This document shows, in pieces, positions 1 through 1,349 of a DNA stretch of 1,349 bases (the stretch's first letter is position 1; each line of letters begins with the position of its first letter). Below the pieces are notes generated by a model. That model was not told the origin of the DNA and did no database searches. It worked only from the letters and a program-made list of their open reading frames with translations. The position numbers and the translations under genes are program-made. Origin of the DNA: a phage; sequence record AF017627.1; one strand, 5' to 3'.

Positions 1-165
1 ATGTTACGCCACATGGGTTGGACTGAAGCCGCAGACCTGATTGTTAAAGGTATGGAAGGCGCAATCAATGCGAAGACCGTAACCTATGACTTCGAACGTC
101 TGATGGAAGGCGCTAAACTGCTGAAATGTTCAGAGTTTGGTGATGCGATCATCAAGAATATGTAA
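1..165 (+). CDS. icd: Isocitrate dehydrogenase (NADP-dependent), C-terminal 54 codons; 5'-truncated by the window edge
   Basis: Frame 1 translates without stops to [54 protein letters not shown], then TAA at 163-165. From memory this matches the C-terminus of E. coli Icd (...[36 protein letters not shown][D][15 protein letters not shown][E]NM) except at two residues. Not in the ORF track, presumably because it is short. Confidence 0.93.
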
Positions 166-188
166 TCACTACATGTGTTAAATATTGA

Positions 189-218
189 AACGGGCGTATA
201 ACACGCCCGTTGTTTTAT
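189..218 (+). terminator. Probable rho-independent terminator of icd
   Basis: Perfect 9-bp inverted repeat AACGGGCGT (189-197) / ACGCCCGTT (203-211) with a 5-nt loop ATAAC, followed by GTTTTAT (212-218). It sits about 25 bp after the icd stop. The upstream flank is A-rich (TATTGAAA), so it could terminate in both directions. Confidence 0.65.
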
Positions 219-232
219 GATGATGTAAAATC

Positions 233-268
233 TTCCCCAAAACTTTCCCCAAAACCCTTCCCCAAAAC
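233..268. repeat. Three direct copies of the 11-mer TTCCCCAAAAC (233-243, 245-255, 258-268); candidate integrase arm-type binding sites
   Basis: Read directly: tcTTCCCCAAAACtTTCCCCAAAACccTTCCCCAAAACtg. Copies are exact, with 12- and 13-bp centre-to-centre spacing (about one helical turn). They lie 11 bp from the int stop codon. The confidence refers to the repeat itself; the binding-site role is inference. Confidence 0.85.
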
Positions 269-278
269 TGGCTATTTT

Positions 279-1349
279 CTATGCTGTTTTGATATCTACG
301 ATAATCCAGTCTTTACCACGATCATCATTGTATCGGTCGGTCATTTTTCTGGATTTATGGCCTAACAACTTTTGCGTATCCAGACCCTGTTCCCGATATA
401 ACCGTTCTGACAGAGATCGCTGCTCATGAAATGTGGGCGCAGTTCCTGGCTCCCATTTTATGCCACATTTTTCCCTGGCCTTTTTAAAAGCCGTTGTAAG
501 AGTATTTGCAGAAACCTGGTCTCCTCTGTTTGCTTGAGAGGTAGTGTGACGGTAATGGACCAGATATTTACTAACAACAGCATCCCTGCACTGAGATATA
601 ACTTCACGAAGGGTAATATTCAGAGCATCGCATTTCAGGCTAAGCGGAATAGCAAGTTTTGAACCGGTTTTTTCCTGAGTAATGTGCAACATGTCGTCCC
701 ATATATCAGAGAATTTCAAATTGCAGATATCGCCTAAACGTTGTCCAGTAACAAGAGCAAGTAGCATGCCGCATTTTAAATAGGGCTGCCGTCTGCTTAC
801 GCTTTCAAATATTGCCTGCCATTCGGGCAGTGATAATCTTTGGCGGTTTACTCGATTTCGCGGTTGTTTTGTTGCCTGCGCTGGGTTAAATCCTGGCGGA
901 ACATGTCCTGCGTGTTGTGCTTCTTTGAAGACGTCGATCAACACCATTCTCACGACTTGCGCCATCCTGTTATGACCTTCAGCCTTTACAGCATCAATTA
1001 TTTCGGCAATATCAAGTGCGGTAATATCCTTGAGGTGTTGCATTCCACAATGCTCACGGAAAAGACGAATGGGTTTACCTTTTTGCCGATAGGAGTTGGG
1101 TTTTAGTTCATTATGTTGCAGCCTGTCCTCCTGGATAGAAATATATTTATCAAGCCATTCTGTCACCGTAATGTCTGAGCGCCTGCCTTTCATTCTTTCT
1201 AGACGCTCATTGACGCTTAATATTTGTCGGGTACGTTGTTCAGCAATAATGGTATTTGCTTCAGTAGCAACTTGTTTTGCTTCATTCTCATCAGTTCCTA
1301 AGCTATGAAAACGACCGGATAGTGGATGTTTGTATTGCCAATATACCTT
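279..1349 (-). CDS. int: Lambda-Int-family tyrosine site-specific recombinase (phage integrase); 5'-partial, N-terminus beyond the window edge
   Basis: The - strand frame is open from 1349 to the TAG at 279-281; I translated 1194-1349 by hand and found no stop. The C-terminus ...PTFHEQRSLSERLYREQGLDTQKLLGHKSRKMTDRYNDDRGKDWIIVDIKTA parallels lambda Int ...PTFHELRSLSARLYEKQ...HLLGHKSDTMASQYRDDRGREWDKIEIK, as recalled. Catalytic motifs are present: LVTGQRLGD (Arg), HEQR (His-x-x-Arg), LLGHKS (His), and Tyr in DRYNDD (codon 330-332). The upstream part ...KVYWQYKHPLSGRFHSLGTDENEAKQVATEANTIIAEQ... resembles the lambda Int N-terminal arm-binding domain (YYCYRDPRTGKEFGLGRDRRIAITEAIQANIELF). Confidence 0.93.
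   Translation of the reverse strand, partial: KVYWQYKHPLSGRFHSLGTDENEAKQVATEANTIIAEQRTRQILSVNERLERMKGRRSDITVTEWLDKYISIQEDRLQHNELKPNSYRQKGKPIRLFREHCGMQHLKDITALDIAEIIDAVKAEGHNRMAQVVRMVLIDVFKEAQHAGHVPPGFNPAQATKQPRNRVNRQRLSLPEWQAIFESVSRRQPYLKCGMLLALVTGQRLGDICNLKFSDIWDDMLHITQEKTGSKLAIPLSLKCDALNITLREVISQCRDAVVSKYLVHYRHTTSQANRGDQVSANTLTTAFKKAREKCGIKWEPGTAPTFHEQRSLSERLYREQGLDTQKLLGHKSRKMTDRYNDDRGKDWIIVDIKTA

What the first reader, a model, noticed from the sequence alone, without database searches (positions are those of the whole stretch)
1..165. icd 3' end is probably phage-supplied, with two C-terminal residue differences from the K-12 protein as I recall it
Elements that integrate into icd (e14, phage 21) carry their own copy of the terminal part of icd, which replaces the host 3' end and keeps the gene intact. 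Because this icd segment adjoins int, it is expected to be the phage-derived copy. The translation shows ...LMEGAK... and ...AIIKNM where I recall ...LMDGAK... and ...AIIENM in K-12 Icd. That would indicate an element distinct from K-12 e14, or a different icd 3' allele. This rests on memory of the reference sequence, not an alignment.
Basis: partly seen in the sequence, partly recalled or inferred. Interest (0 to 1): 0.45.

Follow-up and report, generated by a model that had tools for sequence, protein, structure and literature searches.

The report
Phage 21-type prophage junction in icd
The last 165 bases of the E. coli isocitrate dehydrogenase gene here are the replacement copy that a phage 21-type prophage brings along when it inserts into that gene; this is a long-known arrangement, and the two amino-acid differences from K-12 are the common E. 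coli version, not a phage signature.

Summary
Window 1-165 is the end of icd (codons 363-416 plus stop) and encodes E398 and K414, where K-12 Icd has D398 and E414.

The main interpretation is also correct. The window is the attL junction of a phage 21-type lambdoid prophage.
- It matches E. coli CE10 at 100%, and bases 1-280 match GenBank AF017626 ("Bacteriophage 21 icd/int") at 100%.
- Virion genomes of phage 21, ev017 and Lambda_2E9 carry the same icd tail, the icd terminator, three arm-type repeats and int.
- The integrase is 99% identical to phage 21 Int and 60% to e14 IntE.
- The displaced icd 3' fragment sits at the other prophage end in CE10, next to iraM.

The caveat concerns the two residues, which do not mark phage origin.
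- The displaced host copy encodes the same tail.
- So do 8 of 12 sampled prophage-free strains, which have the identical Icd protein.
- K-12 is the unusual one: D398 comes from e14.

The 217-bp att homology is a diversity hot spot (4.6% against 0.46% upstream) in lysogens and non-lysogens alike, and phage and host copies intermix.

This is already known (Campbell 1992; Wang et al. 1997). Interest is low.

The parts
1..165 (+). 3' end of icd: codons 363-416 plus the TAA stop. It encodes E398 and K414. Nt 1 is on the host side; nt 2 onward lies inside the phage/host att homology.
   Evidence: Identical to the CE10 icd end and to AF017626 1-165.
2..218 (.). Segment shared by phage attP and bacterial attB: the icd tail (164 nt) plus 53 nt downstream that include the icd terminator. 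In a lysogen this copy is the phage-borne one, lying between the core and the P' arm sites.
   Evidence: The alignment of CE10 attL, CE10 attR, ev017 attP and the K-12 junctions shows homology starting at nt 2 and ending at nt 218. Virion genomes carry it.
2..11 (.). Inferred position of the core/strand-exchange region.
   Evidence: For e14, excision replaces icd alleles from the equivalent of nt 12 onward (PMC13626634 Table 1). Homology begins at nt 1-2, so exchange lies within 1-11. For this 21-type element the CE10 attL/attR comparison alone only bounds it to nt 2-62. Use of the same attB is stated in the literature (Wang H et al. 1997 title, cited). This is inferred, not shown.
189..218 (+). 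icd intrinsic terminator (9-bp stem, 5-nt loop, T tract), supplied by the phage together with the coding tail.
   Evidence: Annotated as a terminator in phage 21 OL657228. Conserved in attP, attL and attR.
231..267 (+). Three arm-type Int binding repeats YYTTCCCCAAAA at 231-242, 243-254 and 256-267 (the P' arm of attP).
   Evidence: 3 matches, 0 in 200 shuffles. Annotated as P1P2P3 in OL657228. A fourth copy lies in the P arm, about 131 nt upstream of the homology.
279..1349 (-). Phage 21-type tyrosine integrase gene, cut by the window end (codons 25-380 plus stop are present).
   Evidence: The CE10 full-length Int has Arm-DNA-bind_1 and Phage_integrase domains and is 376/380 identical to phage 21 Int.

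Best explanation
The window is the left junction (attL) of a phage 21-type lambdoid prophage inserted in the E. coli icd gene.

The phage attP carries a core at the left end of a 217-bp copy of the icd 3' end plus terminator. This is followed by three arm-type Int sites and then int.

Int-mediated exchange at the core joins host icd codons 1 to about 365 to the phage-borne tail. The host's own tail is moved to the far end of the prophage as a promoterless fragment. icd stays intact and correctly terminated, so lysogeny costs no TCA-cycle function.

Steps shown here: the anatomy, the phage-borne copy, the displaced copy and the Int identity. Steps inferred: the exact exchange point (about nt 2-11) and that this particular copy is expressed as part of Icd.

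The E398/K414 tail is simply the prevalent E. coli Icd tail, which 21-type phages also carry.
For: - The window is 100% identical to CE10 and three other genomes. Bases 1-280 are 100% identical to AF017626, 'Bacteriophage 21 icd, int', and the two sequences stay identical through nt 730.
- 29 phage records match the window, including virion-derived genomes, and 26 of them carry the icd fragment plus int over at least 80% of its length, at 98-99% identity in the 20 rows listed. Phage 21 OL657228 annotates the fragment as an unexpressed ICDH-like pseudogene, followed by a terminator, the attP subsites and the tyrosine integrase.
- attP/attB homology spans nt 2-218.
- The displaced fragment is at CE10 attR, next to iraM.
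- Int is 99% identical to phage 21 Int and has a lambda-type arm-binding domain. The arm repeats are present.
- All 21-type phage copies differ by 5-13 synonymous changes and no non-synonymous change in codons 364-416. This indicates selection for a working Icd tail.
- Population frame, out of 5426 genomes: 3036 have an empty site, 1624 have this int next to icd, and 283 have an e14-type junction.
- Literature: phage 21 replaces 165 bp of the icd 3' end (PMC4129442). The NC-SV prophage sits at the phage 21 site in icd (PMC12803456).
Against: - At nucleotide level the window's 165 nt is no more distant from some prophage-free alleles (4-5 differences) than from phage copies (6-13). Sequence similarity alone therefore cannot assign it to phage or host.
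- CE10 attL and attR are identical over nt 2-62, so the exchange point is not resolved in this strain.
- The CE10 prophage is degraded and cannot be shown to have integrated recently.
Confidence: 0.93

Rival explanations
1. The 165 nt is the strain's own ordinary icd allele. The prophage merely sits downstream of an untouched gene, and the residue differences from K-12 are plain strain polymorphism.
For: The encoded tail equals the commonest E. coli Icd (WP_000444487.1) found in 8 of 12 sampled empty-site strains. Nucleotide distance to some empty-site alleles is only 4-5. Residues 398 and 414 vary across genera.
Against: Phage attP homology starts inside icd at nt 2, not after the stop. A second icd tail is left at attR. 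Free phages carry the tail. attL and attR differ at nt 63, 69, 78 and 159, and at all four the window carries the ev017 phage allele (phage 21 itself shares three of the four).
Confidence: 0.04
2. The element is an e14-type defective prophage, as in K-12, with a diverged icd tail.
For: It uses the same insertion site and has the same overall layout: icd tail, terminator, three repeats, and an int gene of the same family.
Against: Int is only 60% identical to IntE and 99% identical to phage 21 Int. The arm repeats are TTCCCCAAAA, not e14's TTATCAAAA. The segment differs from the e14 copy at 32 of 218 positions. Only 283 genomes have the e14 junction, against 1624 with this one.
Confidence: 0.01
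3. The present sequence of window 1-165 is not simply 'what the phage brought'. It is a mosaic produced by homologous recombination or gene conversion between the two icd tails (attL/attR), or by earlier rounds of lysogeny and curing.
For: CE10 attL and attR are identical across nt 2-62. That stretch includes C12 and T18, a combination seen in none of 12 empty-site strains or 3 virion attP sequences. The two copies then differ at six sites between nt 63 and 189. The reconstructed pre-lysogeny CE10 allele is itself 3.65% diverged from its close relative in this segment. Phage and host copies intermix in the distance matrix.
Against: The sample is only 12 strains and 3 phages. An unsampled phage variant with C12/T18 infecting a host that had previously been cured of the same phage explains the pattern without any conversion.
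Confidence: 0.15

Closest known systems
Phage 21 attL in icd (Campbell et al. 1992 Genetica; Wang H et al. 1997 J Bacteriol 179:5705; GenBank AF017626, M61865, OL657228)
   Same: Same insertion site and the same 217-bp icd homology. Same three YYTTCCCCAAAA arm repeats. Int is 376/380 identical. Window 1-730 is identical to AF017626.
   Different: The reference phage 21 copy differs from the window at 13 of 165 nt. Twelve are synonymous changes in codons 364-416. The thirteenth is nt 1 of the junction codon (CTG in phage, ATG in attL). In CE10 the prophage is a degraded remnant.
e14 defective prophage of E. coli K-12 (icd / icdC; Hill et al. 1989)
   Same: Uses the same attB in icd, supplies a 165-nt replacement tail plus terminator, and leaves a displaced tail (icdC) next to iraM.
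   Different: Int is 60% identical. The arm repeats have a different consensus (TTATCAAAA). The e14 tail encodes D398/E414 and is 14.6% diverged over the homology segment.
Prophages that integrate into the 3' end of tRNA or protein genes and carry a replacement 3' end (for example P4/P22-type tRNA sites)
   Same: The general principle is the same: attP duplicates the 3' end of the target gene so that the gene stays functional.
   Different: Here the target is a protein-coding housekeeping gene. The duplicated stretch is unusually long (217 bp) and lies inside attP between the core and the arm sites.

Membership tests
Phage 21-type icd-integrating lambdoid prophage (attL junction) | Integrase essentially identical to phage 21 Int, of the lambda type with an N-terminal arm-binding domain | tested here: met
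   376/380 identical to UMO75448.1. Pfam Arm-DNA-bind_1 E = 1.7e-28 and Phage_integrase E = 9.4e-24.
Phage 21-type icd-integrating lambdoid prophage (attL junction) | The free phage genome carries a copy of the icd 3' end next to int | tested here: met
   Phage 21 OL657228, ev017, 4A7, Lambda_2E9 and others.
Phage 21-type icd-integrating lambdoid prophage (attL junction) | Arm-type dodecamers YYTTCCCCAAAA between the icd terminator and int | tested here: met
   Three exact matches at 231-267, with none in 200 shuffles. A fourth lies in the P arm of phage 21.
Phage 21-type icd-integrating lambdoid prophage (attL junction) | Displaced host icd 3' fragment at the opposite prophage end (attR), adjoining the normal downstream gene | tested here: met
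   CE10 1341494-1341661, followed by iraM. The P-arm sequence upstream is identical to phage attP.
Phage 21-type icd-integrating lambdoid prophage (attL junction) | Int-catalysed strand exchange at a core at the 5' edge of the homology | not testable with these tools
   Bounded only to nt 2-62 by CE10 attL/attR. For e14, excision data place it at or before nt 11. The primary papers are not held.
e14 element | IntE-type integrase and TTATCAAAA arm repeats | tested here: not met
   60% Int identity. The repeat consensus differs.
NADP isocitrate dehydrogenase (Pfam Iso_dh PF00180), C-terminal part | Match to the C-terminal end of the family profile, in frame with the upstream gene | tested here: met
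   Window 1-162 matches profile positions 301-348 of 348. The full CE10 Icd scores 309 bits.

The most novel reading that the evidence does not exclude
Most 'prophage-free' E. coli icd tails may themselves be relics of earlier 21-type lysogeny and curing. On this reading the prevalent Icd C-terminus (including K414) is a phage-circulated allele, and the last 217 bp of icd evolve as part of the phage gene pool rather than the chromosome.

The excess diversity of the segment in empty-site strains and the intermixing of phage and host copies are compatible with this. Much of the idea was already put forward by Wang, Whittam and Selander in 1997 (cited).
Probability: 0.4. Interest if true: 0.25.

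Novelty: already known. Interest (0 to 1): 0.1.

Why it matters
This is a textbook case of a prophage that inserts into a housekeeping gene and repairs it with its own copy of the gene's end.

Practical consequences:
- The last 165 nt of icd should not be used for strain phylogeny or MLST-like inference.
- 'Mutations' in icd seen after prophage gain or loss are allele swaps, not point mutations.
- The K-12 Icd C-terminus is not the typical E. coli one.

No new biology follows from this window.

Tried and rejected
- The Rfam scan of the window at permissive threshold gave only a sub-threshold tpke11 match (20.8 bits against a gathering score of 43, E = 0.14). It overlaps the icd terminator and was judged to be chance or terminator resemblance.
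- The promoter scan of nt 1-400 found nothing.
- I checked whether the svsR/co293-like sRNA of NC-SV/e14 lies in the window. It lies at the cI gene, not here.
- I tried to read the primary papers (PMC179457, PMC331406, PMC210168, PMC211083). None is held. Statements about the minimal attP size and the 209-bp homology therefore rest on my memory and are not used as evidence.
- The genome-contig scan kept 80 loci that did not include Escherichia or Salmonella representatives. The outgroup comparison is limited to other Enterobacterales genera.
- I considered pinning the 21-type exchange point from additional lysogens. I rejected this because attL/attR differences cannot be assigned to phage or host without the matching free phage or cured strain.

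Full report
**Observation.** Window 1-165 is an open frame of 54 codons ending in TAA. The whole window matches E. coli CE10 (NC_017646.1 1284179-1285527) and three other complete genomes at 100%. In CE10, bases 1-165 are the last 165 nt of the 1251-nt icd gene, that is codons 363-416 plus stop. The tail reads ...[26 protein letters not shown]1655 Icd ends ...[24 protein letters not shown]. At nucleotide level the two tails differ at 15 of 165 positions.

**What adjoins it.**
- An intrinsic terminator follows the stop: hairpin at 189-211, T tract to 218.
- Three exact copies of YYTTCCCCAAAA lie at 231-242, 243-254 and 256-267. None was found in 200 shuffles.
- An integrase gene on the minus strand runs from 279 to beyond the window end. 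It is 1143 nt in CE10.
- The CE10 Int has a lambda-type arm-binding domain and a tyrosine-recombinase catalytic domain.
- It is 376/380 identical to phage 21 Int and 226 of 376 aligned residues (60%) identical to e14 IntE.

**Is the icd tail phage-supplied?** Yes, on structural grounds.
- 29 phage records match the window. In 26 of them one match covers at least 80% of the window, from its base 2 or 7 onward, at 98-99% identity in the 20 rows listed.
- These include virion-derived genomes (ev017, 4A7, Lambda_2E9). Phage 21 itself (OL657228) also carries the fragment, at 94.9% over window 7-280.
- The phage 21 record annotates an unexpressed ICDH-like pseudogene, a terminator, the attP subsites P1P2P3 with consensus YYTTCCCCAAAA, and the tyrosine integrase, in the same order as in the window.
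- GenBank AF017626, [quoted passage not shown], from E. coli EC38, is identical to the window from base 1 to 730.
- Aligning CE10 attL, CE10 attR, ev017 attP and the two K-12 junctions shows that phage/host homology begins at window nt 2 and ends at nt 218. That covers the icd tail plus 53 nt including the terminator.
- To the left of nt 2, attL is icd, while attR and attP share phage sequence. To the right of nt 218, attL and attP share the arm repeats and int, while attR continues into host DNA toward iraM.
This is the arrangement of icdC in K-12.
- It differs from the window copy at nt 1, 63, 69, 78 and 159. At 63, 69, 78 and 159 the window carries the ev017 phage allele; phage 21 itself shares three of the four and has C at 69.

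**The sharp boundary.** I compared CE10 icd with the closest sampled prophage-free strain, FDAARGOS_497, which has an identical iraM side.
- There are 5 differences in 1086 upstream nt (0.46%) and 10 in the next 219 nt (4.6%), Fisher p = 2e-5.
- The first difference in the segment is at window nt 12, and all coding changes are synonymous.
- For K-12 the same contrast is 0/1086 against 30/219 between the e14-supplied copy and icdC.
- In published evolution experiments, e14 excision changes icd from position 1196220 (equivalent to window nt 12) onward (PMC13626634 Table 1). This places the e14 exchange within nt 1-11.
- For the 21-type element, CE10 itself bounds the exchange only to nt 2-62, because attL and attR are identical there.
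- That it uses the same attB as e14 comes from the literature (Wang H et al. 1997, cited). I could not read that paper.

**What the two residues mean.** They are not a phage signature.
- The displaced host copy in CE10 encodes the same 53 residues.
- Among 5426 complete E. coli genomes, 3036 have icd directly followed by iraM, an empty site. 1624 have this int next to icd. 283 have the e14-type junction.
- Of 12 empty-site strains taken at even steps down the ranking, 8 carry exactly the CE10 Icd protein (WP_000444487.1, E398/K414). Three carry the K-12 icdC-type tail (E398/E410/E414, WP_000444488.1). One has D398/K414.
- In other Enterobacterales, residue 398 is E, D or P, and residue 414 is K, A, E, Q, S or N.
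- K-12 is therefore the atypical reference. D398 is brought by e14. E414 is shared by the e14 copy and the K-12 lineage's own tail.

**Exchange between phage and host copies.**
- The 21-type phage copies and host copies are not separate clades. The window is 5 differences from empty-site strain C3728, 6 from ev017 and 16 from phage 21 over nt 2-219.
- The CE10 allele reconstructed from attR also shows excess divergence in the segment against its close relative: 8/219 against 5/1086.
- This fits repeated lysogeny and curing, each cycle swapping the tail. That was the theme of Wang, Whittam and Selander 1997 (cited; not read here).
- Across four 21-type phage-side copies there are 5-13 synonymous and no non-synonymous differences in codons 364-416. 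The fragment is therefore under selection to encode a working Icd tail, although it has no start codon or ribosome-binding site in the phage (annotation).

**Mechanism.**
- attP consists of a P arm with one dodecamer, the core, the 217-bp icd homology, three P' dodecamers, and int.
- Integration at the core joins host icd to the phage-borne tail and terminator. This junction is attL, which is the window.
- The host tail goes to attR.
- The anatomy is shown. The chemistry and the exact overlap are inferred from the lambda Int paradigm and from the e14 excision data.

[quoted passage not shown] It is recognised in current work, for example the NC-SV prophage at the phage 21 site (PMC12803456), and the same sequence is deposited in GenBank. 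It is not e14. The novelty class is "already known". The one correction is that the residue differences reflect K-12's peculiarity, not a property of the phage copy.

Noticed in passing
L003 1-50000 and L004 1-8700 (CE10 1284180-1341493): The CE10 element between attL and attR is about 57 kb and is a wreck. The lambdoid early region (xis, exo, bet, gam, kil, cIII) is cut by an IS3 element. Terminase and lom are truncated. A complete-looking Mu-like prophage is inserted inside. Tail-fibre genes and a sitABCD iron/manganese transporter lie next to attR.
   Followed up: partly
L007 1-578 and L002 1-578 (phage 21 and ev017 virion genomes): Both virion genomes carry sitA just upstream of the attP region, and in CE10 the full sitABCD operon sits at this position. 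A metal-uptake operon therefore appears to be regular cargo of 21-type phages.
   Followed up: no
window 731 onward vs L006 (AF017626): The ECOR38 record is identical to the window up to nt 730 and then diverges completely. Its int is annotated as a two-piece pseudogene, so an insertion interrupts int in that strain.
   Followed up: no
L005 about 1936-1975 (K-12 e14 attL) vs window 231-267: At the same relative position e14 has three dodecamers with a different consensus (GGTTATCAAAAT, TTTTATCAAAAA, AGTTATCAAAAC). This looks like the arm-site basis of the 21/e14 specificity difference.
   Followed up: partly
window 2-62 vs L004 8499-8559: CE10 attL and attR are identical over nt 2-62, including C12 and T18. 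That combination is seen in none of 12 empty-site strains or 3 virion attP sequences; C12 otherwise occurs only in the K-12 e14 copy. The two copies then differ at six sites between nt 63 and 189. This suggests a mosaic history or gene conversion between the two tails.
   Followed up: partly
L028, L029, L030, L031, L036, L037 (about 1975-3135, minus strand): Species representatives of Arsenophonus, Klebsiella sp. I138, Mixta, Xenorhabdus and two Symbiopectobacterium have a 21/e14-family integrase immediately downstream of icd in the same orientation. Identity is 74% to 21 Int in Arsenophonus and 84-85% to e14 IntE in Klebsiella and Mixta. The icd 3' end is therefore an insertion site well beyond E. 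coli.
   Followed up: partly
window 52-62 and 103-113: There is an exact 11-nt direct repeat ATGGAAGGCGC, encoding MEGA twice. The e14 copy breaks the second repeat (ATGGATGGCGC), which is the D398 change.
   Followed up: no
(E. coli genomes summary); H138 NZ_CP098209.1: About 20 matches to the icd tail region lie on records classed as plasmids. One example is a 14.8-kb record with an icd fragment. These may be excised or circular prophage forms, or mis-binned contigs.
   Followed up: no
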